Source of the DNA: Phoronis australis
Lineage: Eukaryota; Animalia; Phoronida
Length of the DNA: 64,000 bases
Direction: 5' to 3'
Assembly: GCA_002633005.1 (NCBI GenBank)
Contig: NMRA01000650.1
Coordinates: forward strand, 20,850-84,849
Shown here: in pieces, positions 11,312-64,000 of the stretch
Position numbering within the stretch: the first letter of the stretch is position 1
How the letters are laid out: each line of letters starts with the position of its first letter
Program-made: the position numbers and the translations under genes
Notes under the pieces: model-generated
Databases searched by the model: none
What the model was told of the DNA's origin: nothing
What the model saw: only the letters and a program-made list of their open reading frames with translations

Positions 11312-11383
11312 ATGAAGATGGCAGCAAAACAGGCAAGTGGCGGATCTGAAGGTTACCTCCTCACCGAAGATGAAAAGAAAGAG
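11312..11383 (+). CDS. Putative first coding exon, MKMAAKQASGGSEGYLLTEDEKKE
   Basis: ATG in AAGATGG context, open frame, donor GAG|GTAGGT in phase 0 matching the next exon; no recognisable domain. Confidence 0.55.
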
Positions 11384-29300: not shown

Positions 29301-32300
29301 GGATGTCGTTAAGGTCAGAGTTACGGTTCCGAGATAGGGATCGGGGTTAGGGTTACGGTTCTGCTCTTATCCGTCTTGAAACTACGTGGCACTGGTGAAC
29401 GAAACGTTGCTTTTAAAAATAGCGTCTTGCCATAGGCTACAGTTTTCACGTGTACACGCGATCAATTGATACATTTGCCTATACTTGAATATTTTTAAAG
29501 GGGCATTTTCTTATCACAATTAACCAATTAAAGAGACCATGGCCAATCACCATCAAGTTATAATTCTTCAATTTGAGTTTTTTGAAATTTGTTTGACATG
29601 CAGTCGTTCTAAATGGGGTTTTGGACAAGGTTACAATATGGAAAATTTGGTCGTTGACATCAAGCGACTTCTAAGAACTGACTGTGAGCACATACAGTAA
29701 GCCCATTTATCATATGTTGGAGTCAGACTAGAAATTGCGTTTTGACTACATAGTTTTTTTCTTAAAATGTATTTCAAAATTTTTGGAATGTTTTGATTTT
29801 TCTGTAATTTTTTAAACAAGAGGAAAGTGAATTCCTTTGTATTAGATGTTGCGTGGTGGTACTTTCACGACAATTTGTTTAAAAGATATATTTGCCGAAC
29901 TTTCGCGTTCCATGCCTCTTTTATAAGTTTACTGACATACCACCACACATTTTACTTCTTGGGTGATTTTAGTAAACATTGAAATTTACAAGATTTATTT
30001 AGATCATTTCGAAAAGGCAAATGTTTTACCGGTGCAACATGTTATCATTGTTTTTGGTATGGAGGATATGACTCTGTGACACTTAATTTTGAATTTGTGT
30101 ACATTATTTATACGTCTGTTTTCTATATGTTTTCCAAGTAACCGTCGGGTCCAAGTGGCCGTCGGCAAGTAGAGGCGTAACATCAAAATGCAGCTTATGT
30201 TGAATTTGACATTTTTGTATTCCTTGTTTGCATGTCATAAAAAGGTCGTTATCGTTCCGTACTGAATATGAAAGTCTTGGACACCGCATATTTTTTACTT
30301 TCCGTTCTTTACGGAATATCAAAATAAAATGTTGAATAAGGTAAATCAACGATCATGTCAGTATTTTATACAAAATAGAAAATGGTGTCCATGCCAAATT
30401 AGAACATTTAGAATGTCAAACGAGTGTCAAAAAACTCAAGATGCAACCAGTTTCATGATATTTGTCATGGTCATAGTCTCTTTAATTGGCTCCTTTTGAT
30501 AAGGAAATGCCCTTTTAAATATATTCAAGAACAGGCGAATGTATCAATTTATCGCGTGTACACGCGAAAACTGGCCGGCAAAGCGCTCTTTTTAAAAGCA
30601 GCAGTTCACTTGGCCAGGCCACTGCCTCGACGTCTGGAGACTCAGAACAGCAGAACAATGCGTTTGCATTTTTGGCAAAATGGGAACTACGTGATGTATT
30701 GACTTTGCTGAACATCAATCTTGATAAGAGGAATGGTTTTGGTAAAGTGTGTTTAATTTGTAGAGAAGAGTTTGTCCTGTTCCAGGACGTTTTCTCACTT
30801 AGCAATTTGTTCAATACCATTGTCAATAAGAAGTTGAATTGTTAATTTCCTTAAACTACTTCACACTTCAGTTGTATTTTAATAATAACCTAATCCAATA
30901 TCATTTTTATAATGTATTGGTGTTCTGCCATAAGTCTATAATTCTATTCCCGATTGTTAATGACCCAAATTTGTTAGAAACTATTTTCGACCTCTGGGAG
31001 AAGTGAAACTGGACTTATAATTTAGTTTCACAGTGTTTTTGAATTGATACACTCAGCAGGTATTCGGGTAGACATACTAATAAAGCTAGGCGACCCCGTA
31101 AGTTTTACCATAGATTATAGACAACTATCTGTACTATAGTCTATGGTTTTACCCATATAATCGCTGCTTTCATATAGAGCACATTGCTGTCTATTACATC
31201 GTATTTTATGTAAAAAATATTTTCCGGCAATCTACATTTCGTCTTGTTTAGCTGGCTAAAAAACAAAAATTCAATTAATTCCTTTACTCTCATCAAATTG
31301 ATCTCATAAAGATTATTATTAAGTTTGAATAAAGTCACGTTATTGTCAATAAAAGTGATATACTGTAGCTTGGTTTAGCTATAACTAGTCGTCCAGACTT
31401 TGATAAAAGTGTTCATATTTCTAAGTTCATGTATGTCTTCGCACTGAGAATTATTAACATTAACGAACACACTACGAGAGTGACGTGACCTTGTTCTTTA
31501 AAATGATGATCTATACAAAACCACGAGTAATATATTACCTGGTAAACAAAATAGATTTGGTAATTGTGTGTACAATTGTGGTATTTCAACCTTTGCATGG
31601 CGAGTAATAAAAATTCACAGTGAAGTTAGTGATTGTGAAGTCTTTTACTATAACTTGTTCATTGTTTCTGCAGGGCCGCAGAGCACTTCACCTGGCAGCA
31701 GGGAAGGGCAGGACGGAGGTGGTGAGGGTGCTGTTGCAGGGTCGGGCCGATGTAGACGTGCAAGACGAGGTAATAGAAACTACTTGAGACGACATTAGGA
31801 TTAAGACAATGTTATCTTTGTTACAAAAGCTGTAGACTATCTGAAGTTTAAATAAATATTTTGTGTGTAAATGCACTTTTCATATCTCATGATTTCAACA
31901 TGTATTTTTCAATCTGTACCGTGTACATGCATCTTAAGAAACAGTGAGGTTTAAATTGTGTCAACACGTTGATATTTTTTGTATTCTTAATGACAATCGT
32001 CCATTCAACAGTACAACTTTATATTAAAAACGAAGCCAGTAAACCGGTGAATAAACACAACATGGCGGGATCGCTGTCAAGTTATGCAGGAACTCTGTAA
32101 TTTCTGGCAATTGACGTCTACAACATGTTCTGTTGTTACAGCGACGTTTTAAAATTTCCTGCAACACTTGAGTGTTGAAATCATTACAAGTATTGTAGCG
32201 TCTTAGAGGTGTCAGTAATGTTTCATTTATGTCACCTTACAAGTTCACTTTCCCCCTTGTATGTTAATTAGCTCCAAACGTTGATCGTCCATTCACACAT

Positions 32301-41300: not shown

Positions 41301-44300
41301 GCGCATTCTGTTACACGTCTTTGTGCTACGTTCATTATGGCATTATAGGCAAAGTAAAGAACTTTTACAGAGCACTTGAAAATAGAAATGACCCATCCTA
41401 TACAGCCGTGGCCTTTAGTTTGAGTAAATGGACATACAGTACAATAAGGTCATGGCCTTGTATTCCGGGGATTACGATACATGAATGTTTACGGAAACAT
41501 TGACAATCCGTACGAGTTGCAGACATTAGACATACTCTGTGAAGTGGACCAATAGGCTAAATAGTATTGGAGTTTTTAACAAATGTATTGAATATGCCCT
41601 TAATTAGAAACTAAACGCTCGGCTTGGTTTCCGGGAGTTGTACATGTACGTGACTAATCGATTGCTACCGGTACTCAGTCGTGCATGTCCAATGGTGGTC
41701 GGCGACATGGAATATTCCGAGAAGAAAGATGCTGGTGTGGCAACTGCTAATTAAATACACGTTGATCAGAAAATTATTACTGAACATGTAAGCAGGATAA
41801 ATGAGAATCGTTTCACTTTGGTTCCTGGTAATTAACCGTATTGTTATGTTTGATTGTCCTTGTGGGTTTACTTTCCAAATCTTCACTGAAGGTGTTGTTT
41901 TTGACGCTCTGTTGACCAAGCGAAAAATCACTTTGTTCACTAAGTTCGTGGGAAGTGATGAATTATAACTAGTTCGTTTTTATTTCGGTTTAAGATATGT
42001 CAATGTTCGTTTACACTTTGCCTGAAATTGCTAAAGCATTGCCACTTACTCAACCCTGTCCAGTTACATTGTATACATGTATATAAGTATCTCGTTTCGT
42101 ACTCGTATTTGTTTATTTAAGCCTGTTTTATTTGATGTAGACTGGCGACACACCACTGCACCGTGCTTGTGAATATGGCCACCTGGATGTTGTGAAACTC
42201 CTCATTGAAGAGGATGGTGATGTCACAGTTGTCAACCAGGTAAACATGAATGTAAATGGAACTGTGTGGTAAGACACACTTTTACATGAATAGTGACCAT
42301 GTCATCTAACTTTGCCATAACTTTACCTTAATAGTGAACATGTCATCTAACTTTGCCATCACTTTACCTTAATAGTGAACATGTCATCTAACTTTGCCAT
42401 CACTTTACCTTAATAGTGAACATGTCATCTAACTTTGCTATAACTTTACCTGAATAGTGAACATGTCATTTAACCTTGCTATAACTTTACCTGAATAGTG
42501 AACATGTCATTTATCCTTGCTATATCTTTCCGATGTGGTGTTATCTTCCCGTTAGTAAAGTATCAGGTTTAGTTTTATTAGTTGTATCATGTAGTTGCAA
42601 AAACTTCTAAGGCTGTAAGGATGTATTTCATCATTTCAATGTTCATGTTTCGTTTTACACAGTGCCACGAAATATGTTGGTTCACGTCGGTTTCATTCGG
42701 ACTGTTAATTTTGTGCTATGCACTGTTTTTAATGTTCCTTCGCACAAGCAACATCAGACTAATTTGTCTGATTCATTAAACACCTTAAAATTGACCGAAA
42801 CTCTCTAAAATAGTAACCTTTAAGTCACCAAATGCTTGCTGTTATTTGTGCCTCGTTTTTTTAAAGTAAATATAGTTTTGTGTGCGAGTCTCTACATGTG
42901 TCGGTGAAGTTGGGTTTACTTTTAAATATGATATACATCTGGTGAAACAGTCTTGATCAGAGGCATTACTTGGGAGTGTCAGGACAAGAAATACATCCAT
43001 CATTGTCGCGGAAGTGTTGATAGAAATTGGTGCCCTTTATCTTGACTGATTCTCCTAGTTGTCTGTGACCGCAATTTATGAGAGATGTGTAAATTGAAAA
43101 TCAAAATACTGAGTTAACTCCGCCACTCAGTTTGTCTGGCAGTGTTCATTCGTGATTCATTGGTCTACCCTGATTAATTTGTAGACAGTATGATGCAGTT
43201 ACCTCTCGGGCTGATCTACAGTAAGTCTATTTTGAGACCCCGTTGTTCTTAATCTAGCAGGGATACCCCGCCACTGAAATTGTCTGGCAGTGGATAATTT
43301 TGATACAGTAGAATTAAAATATAAAAAAGTACGCAAAAGTATGCGCATATACAAAGAAATACAACTTAATTTACTGTATGAATGAAGCATAAGACAAGAT
43401 CCTATATGACAATACTGGAGTAAGATTTTCCCCTGATGTTCTTTTTAGTTTGATAAATGCTCCACTACTCTTTATTAAAACGACTCTTTAGAGCAATTCA
43501 AATTTGTTGAACAGGCTTTCTAATCTTCTCAAAGGATGGCGACACTGTACTGCATGAAGCAGCTTGCAGTCTCGTGAATTATCGGTCAGTTGAAAAGTGT
43601 GGTTTTGCCCCTGTTGCCAATAATATAAAATAAAAAGTCGTCAGTTCTTGGCCTCAAGATTGAAAATTCAACTATGGTTGCTTTATCCTTTGATTCTGAT
43701 GTTCTCTTCAAATGAGCTATTGTCCCTTTTACCGATAGATTTCCACGACTGCCCTCCACGGAAAACATGTACTGACTATGTCAACATACATTTCAGTGGA
43801 TTTTAAGGTAGCGTGATTATATGTTAACATACTCAATTTTCTTAAGATTTGACTGTATGGCTGAAAATCCCATCTTCCCAATGTAGCTGCACGTGTTTCA
43901 GCTTGTCGCGAAATCAAAAACTTCTCCAACTTGACAAAAAGATAAACTTAGTCGAGTTTTGCCGCTGACGCCCGGCTTGCACTCAAGAAAATACCCCTGT
44001 CAACCCCTGATTGTCGTTGATATAAGCACGAACCACACTCTCACTTTTGCTCATTAATAGGACACTGTACCTGCCCAAGTAACACGAAATGCAGCCATTC
44101 ATCTTTATCCTTCCGCTTGCTGCGTTTAGGCGTATTTAGGCCATGCGCCTTGATTGTGTTTATGCGATGCAAAATGGCAAACATTGACGTACAATTAGGC
44201 AAATGGAAAGTACTGACCCTTGATGAAAAATATAATAAAAACATCCCGCTTACGAAAGGCACCTGGACCAACAAGTGCGTCTACACTGTACGTGCAAAGC

Positions 44301-47300: not shown

Positions 47301-47630
47301 GAGTTAAAGGCAACGAGTACACTTGTACTACTTTCGAGTGCACAACTTATGCGATGGTCAACTCGAGTGGAAGGCAATGAGTACACTTGCACTACTTTAG
47401 ATTGCACAACTTATGGGATGGTCAACGCCAAAGACTTGAGTCATTCTAATAAATTGCTGATTTTTTTAATACATTTACTGCCAGACATCACGTAGCCTGT
47501 CTGCGGTTGGGTGCCTCAGTTCTGGATTTGACAAAAGTGTATAATAGCGACTAATAGATATATAAGGCAATACAATGTAGCTGGAAAGGGAAGGGGAGCG
47601 GGGAAGGACATTCACGCGCCACTCACACAC

Positions 47631-47666
<36 letters not shown>

Positions 47667-50600: not shown

Positions 50601-53600
50601 TGGGTCAAATGTCACACCGTTCAGTGACTTAATGCGCTCGTACCAAAATCCAGAAAACGAAGAGTCTGTAAAATCACCGATTGAGAAACGTCAGAGAAAA
50701 TGGTCTTTATTGCTAGATGGGCCGTGAACACAAAGTCTGAATAAGGTCACACTTTTGTAAAATGATTTGCTTGTTTTGCCACTGTTCTAATGACGATAGT
50801 GATACAACGTTTCTGCTATCTTGAGTCTGAAAATATGTCATGTTGTATTTTTCATTTTCGACATTTCCGTTCATACTGCGGTCCTTATGATTTTTTCCTT
50901 CATTGGCAATTCCATTTTTAATCCATTATTAAGTAATTCTTCAGATTATTTCATAACAAGTAAGCTCTCTGTGCCTTTGTTTCGTGTAACATCAACCAAG
51001 CCTACATATCATTTTGGAACAGAAATGGACTGTTGGAATGTTGGTGGTCCTGTTAGTAGAAATTACCCCTGTGAAAGAAAACAATCCAAACAATACACTC
51101 ATCACGTGATCAAAATGTGGACCAGTGTTATCACATATTGTTTTGTAACTCAGCAAAAATAGTCTAGTCTCAGATTACGACATTAAATTACCGTGGAACA
51201 CCAAAAATATCAACAGTCCATAAATGACTCAACACGTTGCTTGAAAAGGTGTTTGTGAGCGTATTATCATAGTGAAGTAACTAACGTGAATCCTACTTTG
51301 AGTTTAGCTCGTGGGCAGTAAAACGAGTGGCGCTGTCGTCTGAAATAACGAGCGGAAATCAACAATTGATCGAACTTCAAAACCACTTGCTGGACTGCAA
51401 AACCCAGTGACCGGTGGTCCAACTAGTGGGACTCCTATACTAGATGGTTGCATCTAAGAGCGGTGTGAGTGCTTGGCAAGTCAAGAGGAGTTACATCTTT
51501 TTAAAAGTGCTTTATTGAGAGACGTGAAACATTTCTCATTGACATTTCCACAGTTCTTCTCTGTTTCAGTTCTAAAAATAAAAAACAAAATGCATAGCAA
51601 AACTCACAGATACAGACAAAATGCAAATTCGGAAATACCAAATACGAAAACACCATGAAAAATACCTCAATACTGCCGCTCCCTGGCTCTCCTCACTGAC
51701 GCCAAATATGCACTGCCACAATGTGAGTAAATCGAGTCGGCGCACAACACTTATACTGAAATGAGGGTCAGGTCACATGCAAATTACATTCAGTCTATTC
51801 AGTCATGAATATACACGTGACCATAAGCCACCAGGAGCAAACAAAGGTAAAGTATCTTACAAGCGGGTTGGCCTGACCTAAAATGGATTGGTTGGTGCTC
51901 AATTACACAACAGGCTCCACACGTTCAAAGCGAGTCTCAGGCGGTCAGGCCGTCGTGTTTGATCTCCGACCAACTAGATATAACGCTGGCCAATGTATCG
52001 GTTCCAACCAACCATTGCTTGTGTGATTTCATCATGTTTTGAAGTCCGGACAACACGTTTGATATACCGGTCATTTGGTTCTGCAGTCCAACCGAGTGTC
52101 CGGGCAAACAGTTTTGAAATCCGACCAATAGCCGGCATCCCCATGAATAAGGTTTTGGATGAAGTCATACAAAATGCAAAACAAGCATTTTTTACAGATT
52201 TTATAGTCACGATTTTGAGGCGTTGATCCAGGTGTTTCATTCTTCAAGATTCAAAAAACGTTATTTTTTGCTTTGACAGTGGACTGTGAGAAAGTGATTT
52301 GACGAAGCAAATGTGGACTTCACGAGTGATGACATTTGGCAAAAAGACACTGTACATGTATCTCACCTTGAGTGTTTCTACTTGTCGTACCTTAGAGGTG
52401 GTATAGGTTCTCCAAATGTTATTGTTCTGTAGAACTGTTTCACACCATTGAAAATATCGACTTTCCAATCGCAAAACTTCTTTACTAAGTCCCTTATGTC
52501 CAGCATGTCACAATCTCATGGGTTCAGTCTCGTTCTTGCCGTGCTTTGTTAAATACACTACATCAGTCATACGGTACATTATGTTCCGCAGCAAACCTCC
52601 ATGTAACCCAGCATCTCCACATGTACACTGTTCTGTATGTTCTGCAGCACACCCTCGTGTAACCCAGCATCACCAGTGTACACAGTATGTTCTACACCAC
52701 TCCTTCGTGTAACCCAGCCTCATCGCGTGTACAATGTACACTCTATGTTCTACAGCACTTCTTGTAACCCAGCATCACCAGTGTACGTGTACATTGTGCG
52801 TTCTACACCACTCCTTCGTGTAACCCACCACTAGGGTTCATCATCATTTTACTGTCATTCCCGTACTAACCGTGCCTTGATTAAAACATTGCACCAATCA
52901 TAGGATACATTATGTTCCATAGCAAACCTTCGTGGAACCCAGCATCACCACGGGCCATTGACGAAATATATCAAGTCGAGTCCTTCCATTTAACTGCTGC
53001 CAATAATTTCACAAAAAGCAGACAGTAGTATGTTCATGTCTACGTAAGATCAATACACATGTGAGGTCATTTGATGTGATCTTTGTCTTTCATTCAAACT
53101 TTTTGTTACAGAAAGGAGAAACCGCTTACGACGTTTGTGGACGTAAAAGCAAAGTCGACGAATCAACTGTCGAAAACATAAAGGAATTCTTAAAGGTAGA
53201 ATTCAAAAAGATTTTCGGATGATTAGTGTATAATTCTAAGATATTGTTGACGGTATTTGTGTGATAATCTTGTGGTTTTAATCATTGGAGTCTCTTTTGT
53301 GAATTTTTCACAATTTCGAATACAGCACCTAATACCGCATGGACGCAAATTTGCGGAATTTGTTATCAAAAAATGAAGCGGTAGCTGCAAATTTGGGTGT
53401 AGGCATCTCCATCGTTTTCAAAGCTTATCTGGTAATTGAAAATCCCGGCGGTCTTTCTTTAAAATGACAATCTACCACAGAGATTGGCATTTCTAATTTC
53501 AAAATAAAATAAAACACACACACACACAATGACGTACACACAAACGGCGCATTTTTTCTAATTAAATACTGTTGCTTTACGATTTGTTTGTACTGTGTAA

Positions 53601-56600
53601 TACCACTAAAATAGACTAAGCTGCAGAGATACTCACTTTAAGGTTGTAGTGGCGCCGTGTTGTCAAGGAAAGCTTATGTCCGTGAAAATAAATACTGGGA
53701 ACGCGGTGCTCACCGCGTGAATTCCAACCGTAAACCAATGAGTCGAGCTCTGGCATATTTCACATAATCTCTACCTGTTCTCTGATTTTCTTGTTCCAGT
53801 GTTGTCCCCCTCTTGCTAATGTCTGGATTGTAGGTTCTCATTTATTCCGTTTTGATTTGAAAAATATTCTTAACTCCTCAGGTATTTCCCCTCTGCGTGT
53901 GTGCTAACTTCAACAAAGTTTTTGGGGCAATAAATCTTCCAGATGATATCACTCAATCGGTGGTCACGCCCTCATTGCTTATTTTTGAATGGTGAATATC
54001 AACCATGACCCTTTTGTCGCTCTGACTTCACACCTATGTTGGCGCCCCTAATAGAGGTCATTAAAATTCGCGAAACGGCGAGTTAACGGAGTTATCATCC
54101 ATTTTTGGGACATTATGTTTCTACAAAAAACAATGACTCAACATCCTAAAGTACAAATCGGTTCGTCTGTCAGGATCTATTCCCACTAGACTTTCCACAG
54201 AGGAGTGTTGTACAATTCTATGTACATCCCTTTTTTTTCAAACTGGTCCATGGACTATTGTGATGAGCAACTTGTTCACTGTCAGCCTCAGAAACACAGG
54301 AGACAAAGAGGTCACGTGCAACTGTGGGTTCATTCCACCAAGCTTTAGGTGCTGCTGCTGGTGAGGCCGAAAGCAATGAAATGCCTATCGACAGTATTTG
54401 CTGTATTTGTGTTTAAAAACCCAGGTCGTGTCAGCGATAAAAGAATGCCAACAGGAACTGTAACAAATTCGAAACGAATACACGCCATGATTAATACTTA
54501 TATGAAAGGCGGTATGGATTGAAGAGGGCGAAAGGCCTAAAAATACTTTTGTGGACTTTAAAAAGCACCTCTGATGATTACTTACCTAATTCATAATAAA
54601 AATGAAAAACATTCCCTCAACTATCATCGATACGTGGTGTTGCCTAAAGGCAATAAATCAAGGACATTCTTAAAATATTAGAGAAATTTCTTATTAAATA
54701 TTAGTAAAAAGCTTTTGTCAGCTTCTAATGCTGAAAGGATGAAGTCTGTTCTGAATATCTGATTCATGGTAATCAGAAGGTGTTGCTAAGAGACAGATAT
54801 GATGGGGATATACAATGGTATTTATGATATTATGCATGGTGCAGAAGACATTGATGATCTTCTTATGATGGGTAGAGTTCAGTAACGCTAGAACCTCGCT
54901 AAAAGAGCAACACTTCGGGAGATTGCGTGAGATACTGCCGTGTATTTAAAATTGAGAACACGTCAGTGTGGATAGATTTAGCGAGGTTCTCAAGTACATG
55001 TAGGTAATAGGGTTGCTGTATGCGAGACTTCATGTCTTCTGCAAACCTTAATACTCATGTAAAGTATTGTGGCAATAAATTGCGGCAAACCCCGATGTAA
55101 GTAATTTAATCTAGTATTTTTGGAATTGTTAGATCCTATGTCAAAATGCCTGGGCTCAATGCCCTTACATTTTTAACTAAGCCGTAGAGGAACTACCAAG
55201 TGACAAGCACAATCATATAGCACCAACAAAAGGACTGCTTTGAAGCTAAGGAAATAACTATGCAGTGTTTTGGATGACTATTTTCCGTGATTTGGAAATA
55301 TACGGTTTAATGAAAAATATACAAGGTATTTGGTGGCGACAAGTGTTGTCTTGTTGTGGGCTGTTTGATTTATTTCCTGGTGACAATAATGATTGTTTTA
55401 ATTGCAACTGTTCAACTTGTTCCGATAAAACTTCATGTTGACAATTGAAAGAGACTCTTTTTACCTCCTGTACCTCACAGACAGGCGTTTATGCATGACA
55501 TTTGTTTAAGTCAGTGCTTGTCCACGAGTGTACGGGTGTATGGATTGCGGCTATGCTTTTACGACTGCTTACCTTTGACCATTGGAGCAATCGATGAGAT
55601 TAGATATTTGTCTATTATCTTCGCGACTTCTGTCTTTATCTTAACTTCCATTTAAGGAAGTTCTAGTATACACGTACCTAAGTCTATGCTAGTCATTTAA
55701 TCGAAGCTTTCCAGTCAGGTACTGGAGATGGAGCAGATCGTGAAATTTGTTTATCACTATTCCATCGTAGTTTCGTGAATGTACGCCGAAACAAAACATC
55801 GCAGGGCCTAGGTTCAGTTCCATAAAACATCAAATTCAATAAAGAACTTTTTGTAATGGTGTAAAAGGATTTCCGCTCTGAAAAAACGCCAAACATTTGA
55901 CTCAAGTTACAGAAAGCGAGATCAAGTTTTTGTTCTGTTTCATGCAACGTGGCCCTGTGCATCCTTGACTAACTACTAAAGACCCTCATATACATAAACC
56001 TGTTAACACGGACGTTTTTAATGTGATTCAAGTTGTTGACTGCACCTGGCGACCTCATTTCTTTGTGATTTAATGACACGTATGTTGAAATTATTAAATA
56101 ATATCCAATTTAAAAAGCCTTACAGACGTTAAAATATTTGGACAATTTGATCACCCTTGGCGTGATGCATCTCGTAGTGTTTAATCAATGCTGATATCAA
56201 CCCAGGATTGCTTAATTTTTATATAATAAAAAGTAACGAATCATTACTAAAATCTATTGTATTGCAGCATCGAGGCTTTCAAATCTTAATTTCTCGTTTG
56301 TTCAGTTCTTTGAAGTTGAAACGTGCTATTTTATTGTATTTAAAATGAATAAATTTTAATGCAAACCAGTTTGGACCTACTTGATGATTATTATGACGGT
56401 CAATACAATATTAAGCGGACGTAATAAAGTAATTTATCAACGAGTTTAATTTAGAAATTGTCAGTCACCTGGCAAAGCATATAGGTGTAAACTCATGAAT
56501 AGTAATTTTGAGATTTTCGCAAGGTCTTGTGTTGGTCAGATTAATAGATTTATCTCAAAGATATGCTACTGCACTCGTAACTATTTCTGTGCGTTGAATT

Positions 56601-59600
56601 TCCTTTCGTTTTAGGAACACTTGTTCAGACTGGAATCTGATGCACCGCCAACTGGTAAGGAGGATTGAGGTTTCATAGCGTGAATCTGACTCACATCCGC
56701 GACCTATACTTGGAATACCTTCTGTAGACCTATTTTCTCTCGAAAAAAACAAGATATCTCAACCCTTCGCGCATTCATGCTACTCAAATGCAAATGTTTC
56801 AGAAGTCTGGCCTACTGTAGAACTGTTCCGATCACTGAACAAACTACTTTGTTGGTGAGATTGGATTGTTAAAATATGAGATTGAATTCATTGTTTTTGT
56901 ACAATAAGCTGAGGAGAGAATGTCCTGCGATCCCCCGAAATCAATCCGGAGTCGTTCTGAAGATCGCAAGCTATTATTCTGTCCTCACGGCGCACGCCGA
57001 AACATCTGAACCAATGGAATAGAAACTGCGAACTCAGTACCTTCAGGGAAGATTTTAATCCCACCAATTTGGTCAAATTCGCTATTATGTCCAAAAAACA
57101 AAGCGCAATTTCTGAGCTACAAATGGTTCAGCGTGTTTGGATACCCTAGCTTTCACAGGATACTTTTCCTAAACAACAAGCAATATGCAGCGCCACCAAA
57201 GGGTGCAAATAGGGAATTTTACCGGGATATACTTGTTAACTTCCAAGCATACACGCAAAACACTTGCACCTTTGCATCTCGTGCTTTTTTCGCTTTGCAT
57301 GCTCTTGGTATGAGCTTGCTTGTTTCACTTGGGACCTCATGTCCAGAGCGCCTTCCTGGTCAGCCTGCCTGTGTTGCTCAGACAAAGACATAGTAAAACA
57401 TTAAGATAATGAAACAGTTTTTAAGATATTGCCATACATTATACGCGAAACACGTGACCACATTAGCATTGCATCGTTTTATATGTTATTACCGCCAAAT
57501 CCCACGGTAGTGTTGTCAGCATACTCTAACAATCCACCCAAGTCGCGACTGCCAGCTCATGTGGCTATGTAATACACATGAACATATTGTTGTATGGCTG
57601 AAATATTCATAAGTGGTTATCAACGTCTTGTATTTTTAAATGTTATCTTTGCAAACAACAACGTACAGCCTGTACCATGAAAAATCTCACCATAAGCGAC
57701 AGGGCTCCGAGTTCATAGTACTCGAAGTATTGTGTAGTGGCGACTTTTCAATGACCAAATATAAACATGCCATAGACGTACATGTAATTGCGTAAGACGC
57801 CAAGGTAAAGTTGGACATTTGTTTGGAGTACTGCTTGACCTTAAAGGTGCGTGGGAACGAAAAACTTGTAAAAACTACATTTCAAAGATTGCAGAAAATA
57901 TACCTCATGGGATGATAATGTGAGAGTTGTTCATCTTTAATATTGCAAGCGGATATATGGCATGCACTAAAGGAGTTGGAATGTCTACGGCTTAAAATTT
58001 CCGTCCTTACATCTGTGTTTATATCAAGAGTCGAACGTCACATAAAAGGGCAATTTGGGATACTGGGTGCTCTGATGGGAGAGCTGTCAAAAATAAAGCA
58101 CGCGTGCCCGTTTCTGAAATCTAGGTGAGGAACTCATTGTTTTGAGTTGATCAGAAATTGTCTTTGTTGAGAAATCAACATACGTGTACATGTATGTTTT
58201 ATCGATTAACAATACTAAATGAAAACAGCGCCAGTGTACGTTTCCTGTCATTAGTGGACTTCAAAGGCGAGCGGTCGGTACCCGCGGAAATTTATAGTAG
58301 GATGCCTCCGTATTTTGGTCACAGTTTCACAAGTCGGTTTCCTTTAGTTGATTACTATAGTGGGTCCATTATCTAAAATTTGCCGTCTTTTGCGAATAGT
58401 CAGGGGACTTTTTGTTATTTAGAAGCGTCTTCGGAGACGCGTGTCCTACCTGTAAATTAGCATCAAAATATACCTTTGCTTTAAAACGAAGGGCTTTGTT
58501 GTTCATTTGCAAATTATGAATCGTTGTCCCAATAGAGGCGTGGTAGAACTGCAGTGCCTGTCCCTCAATATTCCTTAAGTTCACCCACAACCAGCTAGAT
58601 GTGATACCTTGAAGTACAAAGAAAGTTTCACAGTTGTTACAAAGGATAGTGCATGATGAAACAGGTTTTTTGTTGCATTTATTGTCATACGTTTGTGTTT
58701 ATTGTAAACTGTTGTTATCTCTGTCCTCTTGTCCAGATTAGAACTAAGAATAGAAATGAAAGATAAATTTCCATTTATAATTTTCAGTGGATGTCTAAGT
58801 TGCACGAATCAGGTTAACTATTCTGGTATCGGAGATGTAGAAAATGTAGTGAACAGTTTTAAAAACTGCACATAAGTTCGTTATGGCTTGATACAAGTAC
58901 ATATCAGTGTGTCCGCTCTTTTGGATACTTTGCAAAGTCAACAATACTCACACTGCATTGATTTGTAATGGTGCTAATGTTTAGTATCGTGAGATCAGTA
59001 GAACCACCCTGTATCGTCAAATTAATAGGATCACCCTGTACCGTGAGATCAGTAGGACCACCCTTCATCGGTAGATAAGTAGGACCATCCTGTAACTTGA
59101 GATCGTTAGGACCACCCTGCGAACTAAACGCACAGCAAGTTTTCAAGAATTTTCAAGCTGGTCTTTTGAATCAAACGGCAAGTACAGGAACTACTGTAGG
59201 CAGTGCAGCGCCCCTTGATGAATGTCTAAGAATTCCCGATGTTCTTCGTACCAATACATGTAATTGTCATTTCTATCCCTATAGCAACCATCGATGGAAC
59301 AGCCGGTGGAGTTATGCGGTACAAAGGGGTTCAAATTAGAGTACCGCCCAACGCAATATTCGGGGACATAAACATTGAGTTTGTAGATCAGTCGTTGTCA
59401 GCACGAGAAGTGAATGACAAAACTAAAGGCAGAGCTATCCTCCATTGTCAGGTAATATGTGTGGCCAGCACAGATGAAGATGCAACATTCTCAGAGCCTG
59501 TCGAAATTCGAGTACCTGTTAAAACAATGTTTGAAAAGGTGAATGATCAGCGAAGAGACAGCGAAAACTTTCGCATATTGCATGAACAAGATGGTGAAGT

Positions 59601-62600
59601 GACAGACATTACTGAAGATTGCAATGTCAGGCTGGACAAGATGGAAATAATATTCTACTCTAAAACATGTTTAATGGTTAATATTGCTTGGCTGGCAGAT
59701 TTCACATCACGTTTCGCTACTGGCGTGTTTACGACCATCAAAAATATACTCGAAGCGTCATACATGTGCAAGATATGTCCCTATATACATGTAAAAGATA
59801 GACAAGATGGAGTGTTGATAGTTCAATTATTTTGTCATGGCGTGGACGTGGAGCGTACTGATGACATTGAGCACGAGTGTACAAGTTACAAAATACGTTT
59901 GATAAATAGTGCAATGTTGTCATTTGGAGTTGATTGCTGGTCCATTAAAGATGACGAAAAGAAACAAATTTACTCCAGAGGGTTTAAACTTGAAAGGGAT
60001 CATTGTGACAGGACATGTACAGTGTTTTCGATGATAAGAACTGGTGTTAGAGCACTTGTAGCTGACGAGGTTCAACTGTATGTGAAGGAACTAGTCTACA
60101 AGGAAACGCTGATGGACAGGTCTGTGAAGGTTCATGTAAGTATTTATTCATCTTGATTGTCTTTGTGTGTGGGACTAGAGGTTACTTGTATTGTGGTGAA
60201 GTATGAATCTAGAGTCCTCGTTTTTGTTACAACGGATGGAAGGACTTGAATTGACAATGGCAAAAATGATAAAATAACCATTCATCTAACCATACTCCCT
60301 GACCAAACTCAAACAGCCGATTTCATAAAGGTGGTTTAAAGTTAAACCAGGTTTAAACTGGACTTAGACCAAGTTTAATGATAATCTGCATTTCATAAAG
60401 GTGGTTTAACTTTTAGACCAGTGGTCTTGTAAAACCTGGTTTAACTCCAGTTTAGACCTGGTCTAAGTCAGTTTTCATTTCACCAACGATGTCTATATTC
60501 TTTAGACCTGTATTAAGATCTTAAACCATGTTTAACTTTAGACTTGGTCAGACCCAGGTTTAACTGTTAAATATGTCAGACTTGCATGGTATAGGTACAA
60601 CTGAATGATGGCGCGGTGTGCAATTGCGACGCAGTTTTAGAGCGAAAATGGACTATTTTCATTATTCAGGTTTACTACGACACGAGACCAAACGTAGCAG
60701 GGGCGGATCCAGGATTTTTAAAGGAGAGGGGACGGTCAAGGACTTTTTGAAAGGGGGGACCAAGTCAACAATTTGAAAATTATAGATTTTATATCATTAA
60801 AATCAAGGAAAAGGGGGGCTCCTGACCCCTTGACCCCCCTGGATCCGCCTATGCGTAGACCAGTACGTGCTGGAGTGTGTCCTGCGGATTCCTCAGCATA
60901 CGACTGGTCGAGCAGGTCTCATCGTCGCAAGCCCTACGGATTTGACTTAAGACCGCATCCTTTGATTCTTCTGACTGAGTTCCACCTCCACTGTTCTCCG
61001 ATTCAACTTGTTGCCGGGAAGGGGTCTTGCACCCCCCCCCCTTTGGCCGCGAAAAATAAATACTAAAATGACACGGAAATAAATTTGGGCATTTATCATG
61101 TTACATCTAATCGTGAGCATGTTCTTTAATGTGGGTGTGTTGGGCACACAAATTACATTTTTCCTCATGAGAAAAGCTTTTAGACCTTTGTCGTAAATGT
61201 CTGCACTGATTCTACTGGTGCATGCCATTCTATACCCACGTGATCAAGGTTTCATTGAAGCACTTCAATAGTTTCTTTGTTGGGTTTACCCAGCTCGACA
61301 CAGTGGGGTGCCTTTGATACTTTAAACCTGGTTCTACTGAACCAGCTCCCTGGTCTAGCAAAACCAGGCTTTCAGACTCTTAAACCATGTTGGTGAAATG
61401 CAAGTTAGGTCTAATATTAGACCAGCTTTAGGAAGACCAGGTTTAAGTCTTAAACCTAGTTTTGTTAAACCACCTTTATGAAATCGGCTGAAAGTGTTTG
61501 ATCCGCTGGGACTTGCTAATATGAATGGGATATTTTTGAAGATTTATTTCATCTTAAATGCAAAGCAATGCATGCGACACGTTTGAGATGGTAATGCGTC
61601 TTTGGAATTAAGGACTTTTTATACAATAGACTGAAATTATGGTAGTGTTATGTAATCAGACGAATTAAAAGAGAACATGTTTTCTTAGGACATTACAACG
61701 GCGTGCAAATTGTGCCATGTTTAATGTGTTTTGAGTGGAGGAGGAATCGTTGTACTTACAATAGATTTCTGTCTATGCAGGGCAGACTTGTATGGCCATA
61801 AATATTGTGGGGCAGAAATAAATTCCACTTTGGGAGAGTGGTTTACCTCTGTCTAAGTGGTTCGGAATTTCAAACTATCATCGCCTCTTTTTTGCACCAT
61901 GGTGATTGCCGATTTTTAATCGCTCAAATGCGTGGGGATTTTAGTGGTTGGGCCGAAGGGTGGGGTATAAATACCTGAAATGCAATCACCAAAAACTTGC
62001 GTGCACGTTTCATCAAACATTGCTGGGAAATTGCAACTGCAAGTCGCGTACCCGTCACCCGTGTTACACCTCTATGATTCAGTTAAACTTGACACTTAAT
62101 GAGTTTTTTAAGACATTCACTTCTTTGGGGTGGCAAAAATGAAGTGACCAAGTCACTATATCAAAGTGACCCAGCAAACGCTGTCACGGCAGACAATTCA
62201 GTAGAAAAAACAACTTGAAAAGTAACAATATTTAATGAAGCTTCCAACATTAAACATTTACATACAAACGTTAATAAGTATCATGACTGGCTTGACCATT
62301 CTCCATGTGACACCCAAACTAACATTACTGAGATAGAGTTCATCTTATCAAATCACAAAGCTCGTGCATGGTGCATTTATAGCCAGATCCTTTCTTTCAT
62401 CATCCGACTTTGAGCACCATCTTCTGGTGGTCCCCAATTTGTCCGTTGGATGTTACAACATTCAATGTCGGCACAATCAATTTGTTGTTTTTTCTAGTTT
62501 TAATGGCATTGCTAGATACTACCTGTAGATGTATGTCAAATGCGTGTATGTAACGTGCCGTAACGTGTTTAACCAAGCCGTAGATTGGTTGCCTAGAGAC

Positions 62601-63839
62601 GAGCACAATCGACTATCATTCAAGTTGACCAACATGTAATGTAACAAAGGAAATACATTTTAAGCTGAACTGTTTAACTCGTTTCAAAAAATGATCTTGA
62701 CATATCAGTAGATAATTGTTACCTCCTTCATAAGATTTTATGCTTTGTGTTTGTTAATATGGGTGCATGTGCAAGGTTGTGCTTGTGTCTCGGTGTGTCC
62801 GTGTACTGTACGTGTAAACATCTCTCGTATACGGATTGCAGCAATGTTTTAACTACTACTTGTTTCTGATCATTGGAGTAATCTATAAGATTTGAGATTT
62901 TGTTAACTTCACGACTTCTGTCTTCATTTTGACTTTCATCTAAGGAACTGTCTATAATGTACAGATCTTATTTTATACTAGTAATATGGACATGCATTCT
63001 AAACTTTTGAGTTAACTACTTGAGATGGAACGGATCGTAGTATCATAAGCCCACTATTACATGGTAGTTTCCACGATGCACGCAGAAAACATATCCTGCA
63101 GCTTAGTGTCTGTTGCATAAAGGATTTAAGTCATTCAAGTACTTAATGCATTAGTTTTAAAGTGTTTTCCACTCTGAAAAAAACGCCAAGCATTTGGCCC
63201 AGGTTGCAGAAAACGGGACCAAGGGCGCTATCCCGTCTTGACAGTGTCCTGATGAAACCAGTCTCATTGTACCTTTGGCTTGGAACCAACGTCACACATG
63301 AACGTAGACGTGTTAACAATGACGTTTTTACCCTGATTCAAGTTTTTAACAGGAAATTGCGATCTCATTTTTAATTGTAAAATACAAATAAAATGTAACT
63401 AAAAAACCCAAACCGACTCCGAATTCGTTGGACAATTTGGTTCAGCCATGGCGCGATGTATGTCGTATTGTTAAATCTATACTGATAACAACTTAGGGAT
63501 CTTTTCATGTTTACATATTATAAAAAATATAACATCACTGAAGTCTATTGCGTTGCAGCACCGAAGCATTAAACGTCTAAGTTCTTTGTTGTACAGTTCT
63601 CCGAATCTTGAAAAATGCTACTTTGTTGTACTTAAAATGAATGAGTTTGAGGCAGTCTTGACCTACCTGTTGTTATTATATTTGTAAATGCAGAATGTAA
63701 TTAACTGGTAATTTTGAGATCTTCGCCAGGTTTTGTGTTGCTCAAGTTAATAAACTTTCCATGAAGAAATGTCAATGTACTAGTAATTATTTCTGTGTTT
63801 TGAATTTTGTTTCGTTTCAGGAAGAGTCGAATACAACAG
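11312..63839 (+). CDS. Multi-exon ankyrin-repeat + ZU5(/UPA-like) domain protein gene, 3' incomplete; join(11312..11383,19764..19853,31674..31769,32321..32419,32790..32888,33248..33349,34854..34955,42141..42239,53112..53195,56615..56654,59285..60135,63821..63839)
   Basis: All exons have AG/GT boundaries and compatible phases (nine phase-0 introns, then 1, then 0). They join into one stop-free frame of ~584 aa with TPLH/ALH ankyrin motifs followed by a ZU5-like GG..GVQIRVPPNAI motif. Confidence 0.8.
11828..12033. repeat. ~50-bp minisatellite, ~4 copies
   Basis: Unit aatatctacactatactaaagttatccactgttatcctgttactgactag. Confidence 0.9.
12641..12810. repeat. 41-bp minisatellite, ~4 copies
   Basis: Unit aaacctctgcacgctactatgtagacgcactggacatcacc. 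Confidence 0.9.
14460..14635. repeat. 42-bp minisatellite, ~4 copies
   Basis: Unit cacgttgaattgtatatgcaatgcgatgtaaccctgccaata. Confidence 0.85.
14726..17889 (-). mobile_element. Academ-like DNA transposon, non-autonomous/decayed (3164 bp)
   Basis: Termini TAGTCGGTGGGCCA...TGGCCCACCGACTA, imperfect TIR extending >150 bp, 3-bp TSD TAC on both sides (14723-25, 17890-92), and a Cys8-type finger CKCKKNMC...CCNAGSNCTEMCSCDNCSN on the - strand (15460..15729). Confidence 0.8.
19764..19853 (+). CDS. Ankyrin N-cap exon, VIKAVEDGDSAPLQKLIKNKWNLNQPLRRD
   Basis: Acceptor ttattttcag, donor GAT|GTAAGT; AVEDGD...L.KLI fits a degenerate first ankyrin repeat and leads into D-GRRALH of the next exon. Confidence 0.75.
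20507..21143. mobile_element. MITE with ~26-bp TIRs and TA TSD (Tc1/mariner-type termini)
   Basis: ta|CAGTGCAGCCACTGATATATTAGACT ... AGTCTAAAAATTCAGTGGCTGTACTG|ta; many internal GCGTGAG/CCGGAG motifs. Confidence 0.85.
24620..28260. repeat. Old inverted repeat pair, arms ~24620-25620 and ~27630-28260
   Basis: Collinear reverse-complement matches, e.g. gaattattggaaatgtcgctgttttgtgac (~25447) vs gtcacaaaacagcgacgtttccaataattc (~27786), and gcttgccagagctgttggcg (~24634) vs cgccaatagctttggcaagc (~28196). Confidence 0.75.
28549..28898. other. Assembly gap (350 N)
   Basis: Run of N. Confidence 1.
29385..30625. mobile_element. MITE/foldback element with ~200-bp imperfect TIRs
   Basis: 29410-29590 is the reverse complement of 30425-30600 (cgtgtacacgcgatcaattgatacatttgcct / aggcgaatgtatcaatttatcgcgtgtacacg); an internal segment at ~30140 recurs at ~26512. 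Confidence 0.8.
31674..31769 (+). CDS. Ankyrin repeat exon, GRRALHLAAGKGRTEVVRVLLQGRADVDVQDE
   Basis: Acceptor tgtttctgcag, donor GAG|GTAATA, 96 nt, canonical ankyrin consensus. Confidence 0.9.
32321..32419 (+). CDS. Ankyrin cassette exon A, VCWTPLYWAAVEGQTDTVKLLLANKASVDVRDV
   Basis: 99 nt, acceptor acaAAG (weaker than the TAG of its sister copies), donor GTAAGT. Confidence 0.8.
32790..32888 (+). CDS. Ankyrin cassette exon B, GGQTPLYRAAGRGYTQTVEVLLAHKASVDVRDK
   Basis: 99 nt, acceptor acaTAG, donor AAG|GTAAGT. Confidence 0.9.
33248..33349 (+). CDS. Ankyrin cassette exon C, EWGRTPLHWAAQRGYTDIVKAMLANKASVDVRDK
   Basis: 102 nt (99 nt if the second AG of TAGGAG is used), donor AAG|GTAAAT. Confidence 0.9.
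34854..34955 (+). CDS. Ankyrin repeat exon, SGNTPLHVASEGGHTEVVELLCRESGSDVNTVNK
   Basis: Acceptor tttactgtag, donor AAG|GTATCG, G.TPLH..S..GH.EVV.LL consensus. Confidence 0.9.
40000..40145. repeat. Dispersed repeat family member (related copies at ~14300-14455 reversed and ~54877-54995)
   Basis: Shared gttcagtaacgct..acctcgctaaaa..gcaa.acttcg.gaga.t.cgtgagat...gccgtgtattt core. Confidence 0.7.
42141..42239 (+). CDS. Ankyrin repeat exon, TGDTPLHRACEYGHLDVVKLLIEEDGDVTVVNQ
   Basis: 99 nt, acceptor tttgatgtag, donor CAG|GTAAAC, canonical consensus. Confidence 0.92.
42289..42530. repeat. 41-bp minisatellite, ~6 copies, 50 bp downstream of an ankyrin exon donor
   Basis: Unit aatagtgaacatgtcatctaactttgccataactttacctt. 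Confidence 0.95.
43767..47130 (+). repeat. Head-to-tail pair of ~1.6-1.8 kb units with shared ends and different middles
   Basis: 43767-44170 matches 45547-45920, and 44993-45543 matches 46750-47130 (direct orientation). Confidence 0.85.
47215..47427. repeat. 64-bp tandem repeat, ~3.3 copies
   Basis: caacttatg recurs at 47215, 47279, 47343 and 47407 with aactcgagt.gaaggcaatgagtacact between. Confidence 0.9.
47623..47688. repeat. (CA)n microsatellite
   Basis: Visible CA run. Confidence 0.95.
47700..50450 (-). mobile_element. Decayed L1/Tx1-clade LINE ORF2 (end of endonuclease + RT), 5'-truncated, intronic antisense
   Basis: Motifs KTPGNDGISYEFYKKFW, WRSITLLKCDYKLITK, RQDDPLS, SQYADD, IKSLGI and LWNNQNI across frameshifted ORFs; RID and WKRNNSYL remnants near 50270-50410. 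Confidence 0.92.
52570..52950. repeat. Degenerate ~50-bp tandem repeat (gtaacccagcatcaccagtgtacac...)
   Basis: Five or six aacccagc-type units. Confidence 0.8.
53112..53195 (+). CDS. Ankyrin C-cap exon, KGETAYDVCGRKSKVDESTVENIKEFLK
   Basis: Acceptor ttttgttacag, donor AAG|GTAGAA; G.TAYD...I.EFL is typical of terminal ankyrin repeats. Confidence 0.85.
56615..56654 (+). CDS. Linker micro-exon EHLFRLESDAPPT (phase 0 to 1)
   Basis: Acceptor tttcgttttag, donor G|GTAAGG; supplies exactly the phase shift needed between 53195 and 59285. Confidence 0.7.
58985..59120. repeat. 27-bp minisatellite, 5 copies (tatcgtgagatcagtaggaccaccctg)
   Basis: Visible tandem units; all three + frames contain a stop. 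Confidence 0.85.
59285..60135 (+). CDS. ZU5 domain plus downstream beta-rich (UPA-like) region exon
   Basis: Inside the 305-aa ORF 59239..60156; acceptor tccctatag (phase 1), donor CAT|GTAAGT (phase 0); motifs IDGTAGG.M.YKGVQIRVPPNAI and TFSEPVEIRVP resemble ZU5. The UPA assignment is by position only. Confidence 0.8.
60314..61490. mobile_element. MITE with 26-bp perfect TIRs, 3-bp flanking duplication AAA (PIF/Harbinger-like)
   Basis: aaa|CAGCCGATTTCATAAAGGTGGTTTAA ... TTAAACCACCTTTATGAAATCGGCTG|aaa; subterminal arrays of ttaaacc/agacc.ggt palindromes. Confidence 0.88.
60698..60853. mobile_element. 156-bp MITE nested inside the 60314-61490 element, 5-bp TSD CGTAG
   Basis: cgtag|CAGGGGCGGATCCAGG ... 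CCTGGATCCGCCTATG|cgtag. Confidence 0.88.
63821..63839 (+). CDS. Linker micro-exon EESNTT (phase 0 to 1), paralogous position to 56615..56654
   Basis: Acceptor ttcgtttcag, donor CAG|GTAAGA, embedded in intron sequence homologous to that around 56615. Confidence 0.6.
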
Positions 63840-64000
63840 GTAAGAATTATTGAGTTTTCATAGCGTGAATTAAAATCACCTTCGTGGCGTATACCGCTCT
63901 GTAGCCCTATTTTCTCTTAAAAGCAAGATACCAGAAGACAATTCAAATTCACTATAGTGAAACGCTTGTGTTTCCTAAGGTTAGTATGGTAGCTAGCTTA

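What the first reader, a model, noticed from the sequence alone, without database searches (positions are those of the whole stretch)
11312..63839. Hidden >52-kb ANK-ZU5(-UPA-like) gene with sensor-plus-signalling architecture
Seen: twelve exons join in frame, although the ORF track shows only the ZU5 exon. Established: ZU5-UPA-death domain modules occur in ankyrins, UNC5 and PIDD1 (which has an LRR sensor). Canonical ankyrin has ~24 repeats, whereas this gene has about 8 including caps and a highly divergent ZU5. Inference: a lineage-specific PIDD-like receptor with an ankyrin rather than LRR sensor; a death-fold or second ZU5 module is predicted downstream.
Basis: partly seen in the sequence, partly recalled or inferred. 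Interest (0 to 1): 0.75.

Follow-up and report, generated by a model that had tools for sequence, protein, structure and literature searches.

The report
Fast-varying ankyrin–ZU5 sensor-like gene
This spliced, expressed animal gene joins six ankyrin repeats, each on its own exon and varying strongly between copies and transcripts, to a highly diverged ZU5 domain that likely does not cut itself, so it is likely an untested intracellular sensor or scaffold rather than a PIDD1 counterpart.

Summary
The core gene is real. Six single-repeat ankyrin exons, a cap exon, a linker exon and an 851-nt exon join in frame. Stranded RNA reads link ANK6, cap, linker and the big exon. Structure searches give the first half of that exon a ZU5 fold; UPA for the second half is only a lead.

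- I find 11 exons, not 12, and six repeats plus a C-cap.
- The 11312 exon was not covered by reads; RNA points instead to a start near 30.6 kb.
- The ZU5 lacks the HFS/SFS self-cleavage motif, so it is not PIDD-like in mechanism.

New points:
- The last exon and its flanks duplicate the linker before ZU5, so a second ZU5-UPA exon likely follows the window.
- ANK2–4 are a recent 469-bp triplication. Their amino-acid divergence exceeds intron divergence (p=2e-4), but not significantly synonymous divergence.
- Reads show at least six in-frame hairpin-tip variants at one junction.

No homologue was found in 1.84 billion representatives. This scan noted a similar ANK–ZU5-UPA–death-domain architecture in sea urchins before (unchecked notes). 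Function is untested.

The parts
11312..11383 (+).
   Evidence: In frame with ANK1; best ATG/phase-0 donor candidate in 1-31600; not covered or 28
30604..30741 (+). Candidate real first exon: 5' UTR plus three codons from an ATG at 30733, phase-0 donor (inferred)
   Evidence: Strand-specific depth starts in bin 30392-31057 and 5 of 18 molecules end at 30604; in frame with ANK1; donor weak by my matrix; the joint to 31674 is not among the 15 of 68 joints shown
31674..31769 (+). ANK repeat exon 1 (96 nt, phase 0-0)
   Evidence: Pfam Ank E=1.2e-8; read depth 64 and 49 at 31743; joint from 31769
32321..32419 (+). ANK repeat exon 2; copy 1 of a 469-bp tandem triplication; weak AAG acceptor in the window
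   Evidence: all reads shown at 32318 carry T
32790..32888 (+). ANK repeat exon 3; copy 2 of the triplication
33248..33349 (+). ANK repeat exon 4; copy 3 of the triplication (possible second acceptor 3 nt on)
   Evidence: joints to 34853-34857 and joints that go back to an ANK4-like exon
34854..34955 (+). ANK repeat exon 5 (102 nt)
   Evidence: joint 34952>42139 in 6 reads of X1 (table 5c)
42141..42239 (+). ANK repeat exon 6 (99 nt)
   Evidence: joints to 53110/53115 in X1, X2 and X3
53112..53195 (+). C-terminal ANK cap exon (84 nt, phase 0-0); the cap role is inferred from its opening motif and position, with no Pfam hit
   Evidence: Joints 42240>53115 and 53193>56613; sequence
56615..56654 (+). 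Linker exon 1 (40 nt, phase 0-1)
   Evidence: GT..AG joints on both sides
59285..60135 (+). ZU5 (residues 1-139) plus likely UPA (140-284) exon, 851 nt, phase 1-0; no HFS/SFS motif in the cleavage loop
   Evidence: Pfam ZU5 21.3 bits against a cut-off of 21 on the trimmed half; Atlas 0.96, UPA half 0.85; VIA Z 9.7; Foldseek TM 0.60-0.65; joint 56653>59284
63821..63839 (+). Linker exon 2 (19 nt, phase 0-1): duplicate of linker 1 with an in-frame 21-nt gap; likely precedes a second ZU5-UPA exon beyond the window
   Evidence: joint not tested by RNA
55536..56756 (+). First copy of the duplicated intron/linker block
   Evidence: 68-69% identical to 62827-63930, E 8e-72 and 1e-25
62827..63930 (+). 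Second copy of the duplicated intron/linker block; the match runs to within 70 nt of the window end

Best explanation
The window holds the 5' part of a spliced, transcribed animal gene that encodes six single-exon ankyrin repeats with a likely cap, then a ZU5 domain with a likely UPA domain and likely a second duplicated ZU5-UPA module; it is predicted to be an intracellular sensor/adaptor whose variable ankyrin face binds a target and whose likely non-cleaving ZU5-UPA part relays that binding. Shown: the exon chain, its splicing, the ZU5 fold, the absence of the HFS motif, the duplications and the variation in the repeats. Inferred: the ankyrin array is the recognition part, remodelled by whole-exon duplication and amino-acid change at hairpin tips and helices. 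Inferred by analogy with UNC5b and NLRP1/CARD8: ZU5-UPA holds a downstream effector shut until binding and then helps it oligomerise. That effector is predicted to be a death fold beyond the window. An immune role is the most likely context but is untested.
For: Splice chain in stranded RNA: 42240>53115 (4/6/1 reads in X1/X2/X3), 42236>53110 (1/5/5), 53193>56613 (6/6/0) and 56653>59284 (8/6/0), all with the first mate on the minus strand; ANK-ANK joints. ZU5 fold: the top 8 VIA rows are ankyrin ZU5 chains (Z 7.5-9.7), with NLRP1 at 6.9 and UNC5b at 6.5; Foldseek TM 0.60-0.65; Atlas 0.96 to a 292-aa ZU5/UPA cluster. Variable repeats: ANK2-4 have pN 0.17-0.24 against pS 0.04-0.14. For ANK2/ANK4, 17 of 75 nonsynonymous sites differ against 11 of 189 intron sites, Fisher p=2e-4. 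Six different in-frame hairpin-tip readings appear among the 7 ANK4-like>ANK5 rows shown, none equal to the window's; further joints run from an ANK4-like exon back to another. In the ZU5 exon, 12 of 17 shown read differences change an amino acid. No homologue at E<=0.001 among 1.84 billion representatives fits fast, lineage-restricted evolution. UPA promotes CARD filament formation in NLRP1/CARD8 (PMC11874512, passages).
Against: No effector domain lies in the window, so 'signalling' is inferred. pN exceeds pS without significance (p=0.39 and 0.18; pooled 0.14). Gene conversion between the tandem introns could inflate the exon-versus-intron contrast. Differences also fall on helix 2 (positions 16-24), not only on the binding face. 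UPA rests on Atlas scores of 0.85 and below, which the tool calls a lead, and on a poor model. The reads differ from the window at many fixed sites, so they come from other alleles or close paralogues; alleles, paralogues and pooled animals cannot be told apart. The best structural matches are cytoskeletal ankyrins.
Confidence: 0.5

Rival explanations
1. It is a lineage-specific, non-immune adaptor or scaffold of the ankyrin type, and its variation reflects relaxed constraint plus unequal crossing-over in a tandem exon array.
For: The best folds are ankyrin ZU5 domains. The non-cleaving ZU5 resembles ankyrin and UNC5. pN/pS is not significantly above 1. One repeat per phase-0 exon makes duplication easy without any selection.
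Against: Amino-acid change in ANK2-4 is about 3-4 times the flanking-intron change for ANK2/ANK4, while codons 25-32 are identical in all three. Many non-synonymous hairpin-tip variants occur in two libraries. There is no sequence similarity to the conserved ankyrins.
Confidence: 0.27
2. The window copy is a decaying or little-used member of a multi-copy family, and the spliced reads come mainly from close paralogues.
For: At many coding sites every read carries another base, for example 59587 (44/44 and 26/26) and 60094 (25/25, 16/16, 7/7); the independent contig set X4 shares several of these. ANK2 has an AAG acceptor in the window where the reads have TAG. None of the ANK4>ANK5 junction rows shown equals the window's.
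Against: All exons are open and in phase, with intact GT/AG ends. Linker 2 lost exactly 21 nt and kept its frame. Stranded reads also cover non-repetitive introns.
Confidence: 0.13
3. It is a true PIDD1 analogue: an ankyrin sensor on a self-cleaving ZU5 platform that releases a death-domain fragment.
For: The order repeat array > ZU5 > probable UPA matches; NLRP1 FIIND is among the structural matches (Z 6.9). A second ZU5 copy, not seen here, could carry an intact motif. A Cys sits in the loop, and Cys can act as nucleophile in such systems (PMC9162469, passages).
Against: There is no H/S-F-S in the loop before the last ZU5 strand, which reads K127-T-C-L130. In the UNC5b register, Cys129 takes the Phe position and Leu130 the nucleophile position (assumes no gap over ten residues). 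No LRR and no death domain were seen.
Confidence: 0.1

Closest known systems
Canonical metazoan ankyrins (24 ANK - ZU5-ZU5-UPA - death domain; PMC5135030, passages read; PDB 4d8o, 3ud2, 6m3q)
   Same: ANK array followed by a ZU5 domain; best structural matches (Z up to 9.7, TM 0.60-0.65); no self-cleavage motif here.
   Different: Six repeats plus a cap instead of 24. One ZU5 then probable UPA on a single exon. 13-19% identity and no phmmer hit, whereas true ankyrins are highly conserved from placozoans to vertebrates.
PIDD1 (7 LRR - ZU5-ZU5-UPA - DD, HFS autoproteolysis; PMC9162469, passages read)
   Same: N-terminal repeat array in front of a ZU5/UPA-type module.
   Different: ANK instead of LRR; no HFS motif; a single ZU5 before the probable UPA; death domain not seen.
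UNC5b cytoplasmic ZU5-UPA-DD (PDB 3g5b) and the NLRP1/CARD8 FIIND (PMC3210808, passages read)
   Same: ZU5 followed directly by a probable UPA; structural match over residues 1-140 (Z 6.5 and 6.9).
   Different: No Ig/TSP/transmembrane part and no NACHT-LRR in the exons found. No SF/S motif. The module appears to be duplicated in tandem. Death fold not seen.
Sea-urchin ANK - ZU5-UPA - death-domain family
   Same: Variable ANK array joined to ZU5-UPA, with two ZU5-UPA modules per protein. The nearest Atlas cluster is mostly echinoderm among 14 members with a phylum.
   Different: 6 repeats instead of about 30-78. No death domain between the first ZU5-UPA and the duplicated linker. No detectable sequence match.
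Ectocarpus ROCO-LRR and NB-ARC-TPR candidate receptors with one repeat per exon (PMC3341825, abstract and outline read)
   Same: One repeat per exon, exon duplication and diversifying change in a putative ligand-binding array.
   Different: Animal ANK repeats on a ZU5-UPA platform; no GTPase or NB-ARC domain; family size and recombination mechanism untested here.

Membership tests
Canonical ankyrin | 24 ankyrin repeats (PMC5135030) | tested here: not met
   6 repeats plus a cap; no further repeat in six frames; reads splice ANK6 straight to the cap
Canonical ankyrin | High sequence conservation of the ZU5 core | tested here: not met
   No phmmer hit to PDB sequences, which include ankyrin ZU5 chains, or to 1.84 billion representatives; 13-19% identity in structural alignments
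Canonical ankyrin / PIDD1 | ZU5-ZU5-UPA cassette | tested here: inconclusive
   The second half of the exon has no Pfam ZU5 hit and its Atlas neighbours are UPA clusters at 0.85 or less; it was not folded on its own
PIDD1 | N-terminal leucine-rich repeats | tested here: not met
   The repeats are Pfam Ank
PIDD1 / NLRP1 / CARD8 | H-F-S or S-F-S self-cleavage motif before the last ZU5 strand | tested here: not met
   The loop between strands 121-128 and 131-137 reads K-T-C-L; the only pattern match is S-L-S at residue 37, far from the site; motif definition
PIDD1 / UNC5 / ankyrin / CARD8 | C-terminal death fold (DD or CARD) | not testable with these tools
   The gene runs off the window and no genome is held
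ZU5 superfamily | ZU5 beta-sandwich fold of about 140 residues | tested here: met
   Pfam 21.3 bits against cut-off 21; VIA Z 9.7, rmsd 3.2 over 126 residues; Foldseek TM 0.60-0.65 on a model of pLDDT 60; Atlas 0.96
UNC5-type ZU5-UPA supramodule | UPA domain directly after ZU5 | tested here: inconclusive
   5 of the 6 Atlas rows shown are UPA or FIIND clusters, best 0.85; no Pfam UPA hit; model pLDDT 25-38 in this part
Sea-urchin ANK-ZU5-UPA-DD family (AI notes) | Large ANK stack of about 30-78 repeats | tested here: not met
   6 repeats in the window; reads suggest extra copies but give no count
Sea-urchin ANK-ZU5-UPA-DD family (AI notes) | Sequence homology of the ZU5-UPA module | tested here: inconclusive
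   No look-alike by words and no phmmer hit; no family profile was available; the nearest Atlas cluster is mostly echinoderm
Exon-shuffled repeat receptors (Ectocarpus ROCO type, by analogy) | One repeat per symmetric exon with recent exon duplication | tested here: met
   Six phase 0-0 exons; 469-bp unit, 2.7 copies
Exon-shuffled repeat receptors (Ectocarpus ROCO type, by analogy) | Diversifying selection on the repeats | tested here: inconclusive
   pN > intron divergence p=2e-4; pN > pS not significant
Exon-shuffled repeat receptors (Ectocarpus ROCO type, by analogy) | Multigene family with birth and death | not testable with these tools
   No genome held; read heterogeneity is suggestive only

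The most novel reading that the evidence does not exclude
The gene belongs to an undescribed animal immune-receptor repertoire that works as a natural DARPin-like library. Single-repeat ankyrin exons would be duplicated, swapped and positively selected, giving many binding specificities within few animals, and read out through tandem non-cleaving ZU5-UPA modules.
Probability: 0.2. Interest if true: 0.8.

Novelty: new variant of a known kind. Interest (0 to 1): 0.45.

Why it matters
Invertebrate immune specificity is mostly discussed through LRR, Ig and lectin receptors (recalled). A short ankyrin array, built one repeat per exon and changing faster in protein than in its introns, on a ZU5-UPA platform would add a different kind of variable sensor. 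It would also suggest that ZU5-UPA can relay signals without self-cleavage. The ZU5 exon has no detectable homologue in very large protein collections, so annotation pipelines would likely see only 'ankyrin repeat protein'. Against high interest: every domain is known, similar architectures were noted before by this scan in sea urchins, the effector end is unseen and no function is tested.

Tried and rejected
Homologue searches with the ZU5 exon found nothing:
- 0 of 1174 longer candidates and 0 of 487 similar-length candidates
- 0 at E<=0.001 among 1.84 billion representatives
- one unrelated PDB sequence at E=1.4
- none of 112 pattern matches in metagenome contigs
- no look-alike among earlier notes

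An ANK2-4 profile returned generic ankyrin proteins only. Of 230 hits, 120 were listed; none carries Pfam ZU5, identity is at most 65%, and none matches the ZU5 exon.

The run index listed no RNA holder; the runs used were added by species label. No Rfam match.

Candidate extra exons rejected: 27.9 kb (no usable frame); 43.53 kb (partial ANK-like motif, no Pfam hit, skipped by the ANK6>cap joints); a longer reading of 30519-30741 (phase 1, out of frame with ANK1; no Pfam hit). The weak ISG65-75 Pfam match is far below its cut-off and is treated as chance.

The full-exon single-sequence model was poor (pLDDT 36). The wide VIA search was not obtained, and the UPA half was not folded alone.

Ten literature searches showed no paper on an invertebrate short-ANK/ZU5-UPA family in listings or in the passages read. 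The library lacks most subscription journals. Supplements were not opened; those of PMC3482391, PMC8195603 and PMC12909245 list ZU5 architectures and may bear on novelty.
Full report
Setting. The window is intron-rich animal DNA (GC about 38%) with LINE and other repeat remnants and one 350-N gap. No whole genome is held. The organism is coded. The nearest Atlas cluster is mostly echinoderm among the 14 members with a phylum, which is no proof of origin.

Exon chain. A motif scan and direct reading gave six single-repeat ankyrin exons, all phase 0-0: 31674-31769, 32321-32419, 32790-32888, 33248-33349, 34854-34955 and 42141-42239. All 6 pass the curated Pfam Ank cut-off. A profile built from them finds no seventh repeat in six frames; the next score is E=1.6. 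Downstream lie an 84-nt exon that looks like a C-cap (53112-53195), a 40-nt linker (56615-56654, phase 0-1), the 851-nt exon (59285-60135, phase 1-0) and a 19-nt exon (63821-63839, phase 0-1). With either candidate first exon the chain is open: 533 or 554 residues, no stop. That makes 11 exons, not 12, and six repeats plus a cap.

Splicing. Three raw RNA runs (about 18-19% of each was read) and one contig set were laid on 41900-61800. Among the 15 of 22 joints shown are ANK6>cap (42240>53115: 4, 6, 1 reads; 42236>53110: 1, 5, 5), cap>linker (53193>56613, GT..AG: 6, 6, 0) and linker>big exon (56653>59284, GT..AG: 8, 6, 0). All have the first mate on the minus strand, as expected for a + strand RNA. 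Two runs laid on 22400-42350 (15 of 68 joints shown) link ANK1 to an ANK4-like exon (11, 5 reads) and ANK2- or ANK4-like exons to ANK5; the largest of these rows has 17 and 25 reads. ANK5>ANK6 appears in table 5c (6 reads of X1). These are short-read links along a chain, not single molecules spanning ANK1 to ZU5. The joint to 63821 was outside the stretch laid. The reads differ from the window at many fixed sites, so they report other alleles or close paralogues.

The 5' end. The 11312 exon was not covered. In its favour, it is the only ATG/phase-0 donor candidate at that donor score in the first 31.6 kb (rough matrix written from memory). Against it, depth in 22400-30391 is strand-symmetric (summed bin means 46 vs 40 in X1 and 30 vs 38 in X2). 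From bin 30392-31057 on, it is one-sided (0 vs 10.2 and 0 vs 7.2), and 5 of 18 molecules end at 30604. An ATG at 30733 with three codons and a phase-0 donor fits ANK1, which is one codon short at its start. I favour a start near 30.6 kb in these samples without excluding 11312 as an alternative first exon.

The big exon. Pfam ZU5 scores 19.4 bits on the whole ORF and 21.3 against a cut-off of 21 on the first half. The Atlas gives 0.96 to a 292-residue cluster named 'UPA domain-containing' (ZU5 in 47% of members), and 9 of its ten best hits with a family share that family or clan. A single-sequence model was poor (pLDDT 36). Even so, Foldseek ranked ankyrin-B ZU5-ZU5-UPA-DD first (E=1.1e-3, not under the 0.001 line). 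VIA placed ankyrin ZU5 chains in the top 8 rows (Z 7.5-9.7), then GAIN domains, NLRP1 and UNC5b. A model of residues 1-139 (pLDDT 60) gave TM 0.60-0.65 to ankyrin ZU5. ZU5 is therefore established. UPA for residues 140-284 is a lead only (Atlas 0.85). The exon has no detectable sequence homologue.

No self-cleavage motif. PIDD1 needs His-Phe-Ser (PMC9162469, passages). CARD8 and NLRP1 cleave at SF/S just before the last ZU5 strand, and their Phe corresponds to Leu677 of UNC5b (PMC3210808, passages). Here the loop between the last two strands (121-128 and 131-137) reads K-T-C-L. The VIA range for UNC5b (545-687 on 1-139) puts Cys129 at the Phe position and Leu130 at the nucleophile position, if the last ten residues align without a gap. 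A one-residue shift would put Cys at the nucleophile position but Thr at the essential Phe. Self-cleavage is predicted to be absent; this is untested.

What follows the window. The stretch 55536-56756 matches 62827-63930 at 68-69% (E 8e-72 and 1e-25). The 63821 exon aligns with the 56615 linker, splice sites included, with a 21-nt gap that keeps the frame. The gene has therefore duplicated a unit of about 7.2 kb that contains the linker. Since linker 1 lies 2.6 kb before the ZU5 exon, a second ZU5-UPA exon is likely about 2.5 kb past the window end. The duplication could be partial. No death fold is visible.

Variation in the repeats. ANK2-4 are a 469-bp tandem unit of 2.7 copies. Between them pN is 0.17-0.24 and pS 0.04-0.14. 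Codons 25-32 are identical, while positions 1, 3, 11, 19 and 20 differ at the codon level in all three pairs. For ANK2/ANK4, 17 of 75 nonsynonymous sites differ against 11 of 189 intron sites (p=2e-4). pN against pS is not significant (p=0.39 and 0.18; pooled 0.14), and gene conversion in the introns could raise the first contrast. In RNA, the 7 ANK4-like>ANK5 rows shown give six different in-frame hairpin-tip readings, two with an extra residue, four of them in one run and none equal to the window's. Other joints go from an ANK4-like exon back to another (17 and 9 reads), which implies extra copies or back-splicing. More than two forms per run means paralogues, pooled animals or mis-assigned extra exons; the data cannot decide. 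In the ZU5 exon, 12 of the 17 differences shown are nonsynonymous; only 40 of 896 rows of that table were shown.

How it likely works. Ankyrin arrays bind proteins through hairpin tips and inner helices (recalled). A short array that changes by exon duplication and amino-acid replacement fits a recognition module. UPA promotes CARD filament formation in NLRP1/CARD8 (PMC11874512, passages), and ZU5 packs against the death domain in UNC5b (PMC3210808, passages). I therefore commit, at 0.5, to an intracellular sensor/adaptor with a non-cleaving ZU5-UPA relay and a predicted downstream death-fold effector. The rivals are a non-immune scaffold under relaxed constraint (0.27), a little-used paralogue (0.13) and a true PIDD1 analogue (0.10).

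Comparison and novelty. It is not a canonical ankyrin (PMC5135030, passages) and not a PIDD1 member. ZU5 fusions in lineage-specific candidate immune proteins are in print: a sponge expansion (PMC3482391, passages), NACHT-ZU5 in cnidarians and sponges (PMC8260672 and PMC12909245, passages), amphioxus LRR-ZU5-kinase (PMC9573974, passages) and TRADD-N with UPA-ZU5 (PMC8195603, passages). [quoted passage not shown] Ten searches showed no paper on this short-ANK/ZU5-UPA type. Earlier unchecked notes of this scan describe a sea-urchin family with 30-78 ANK repeats, two ZU5-UPA modules and death domains. I had reached my reading before seeing them, and they are not independent support. Verdict: a real gene and a new variant of a known kind, of moderate interest mainly for the variable exon array.

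Noticed in passing
window 4625-6267 (+): Broken LINE-type retrotransposon: RVT_1 hit (E=7e-13) at 5025-5339 and a weak zf-RVT hit at 5776-6267.
   Followed up: partly
window 47748-50383 (-): Broken LINE-type element with RVT_1 pieces inside the ANK6-cap intron.
   Followed up: partly
window 15463-15735 (-): Cysteine-rich ORF with a sub-threshold TCR/CXC Pfam match (E=0.001); likely a transposon remnant.
   Followed up: partly
window 1742-2211: 54-bp tandem repeat, 8.7 copies, open on both strands as a Cys/His- or Cys/Thr-rich repeat.
   Followed up: no
window 29408-30600: Element with about 195-bp inverted arms (79%) whose right end lies 4 nt from the candidate transcription start at 30604; it may supply or abut the promoter.
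   Followed up: partly
window 24542-28309 and 25424-27838: Nested inverted-repeat pairs (72% over 177 nt; 69% over 440 nt), likely DNA transposons.
   Followed up: no
window 43535-43570 (+): Partial ANK-like motif in the ANK6-cap intron without a Pfam hit; skipped by the joints shown; possibly a decayed repeat exon.
   Followed up: partly
window 30658-30702 (+): Short upstream ORF of 14 codons in the candidate 5' UTR, in the same frame as the ATG at 30733.
   Followed up: no
window 31770-33500: Introns around ANK1-4 carry one-sided RNA depth of about 10-30 reads, against 46-64 in ANK1: nascent or retained-intron RNA.
   Followed up: no
window 28549-28898: Assembly gap of 350 N upstream of the ANK exons; a small exon hidden there cannot be excluded.
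   Followed up: no
window 43763-47130: Local direct duplications in the ANK6-cap intron (43763-44173 vs 45543-45916, 78%; 44992-45135 vs 46748-46891, 92%).
   Followed up: no
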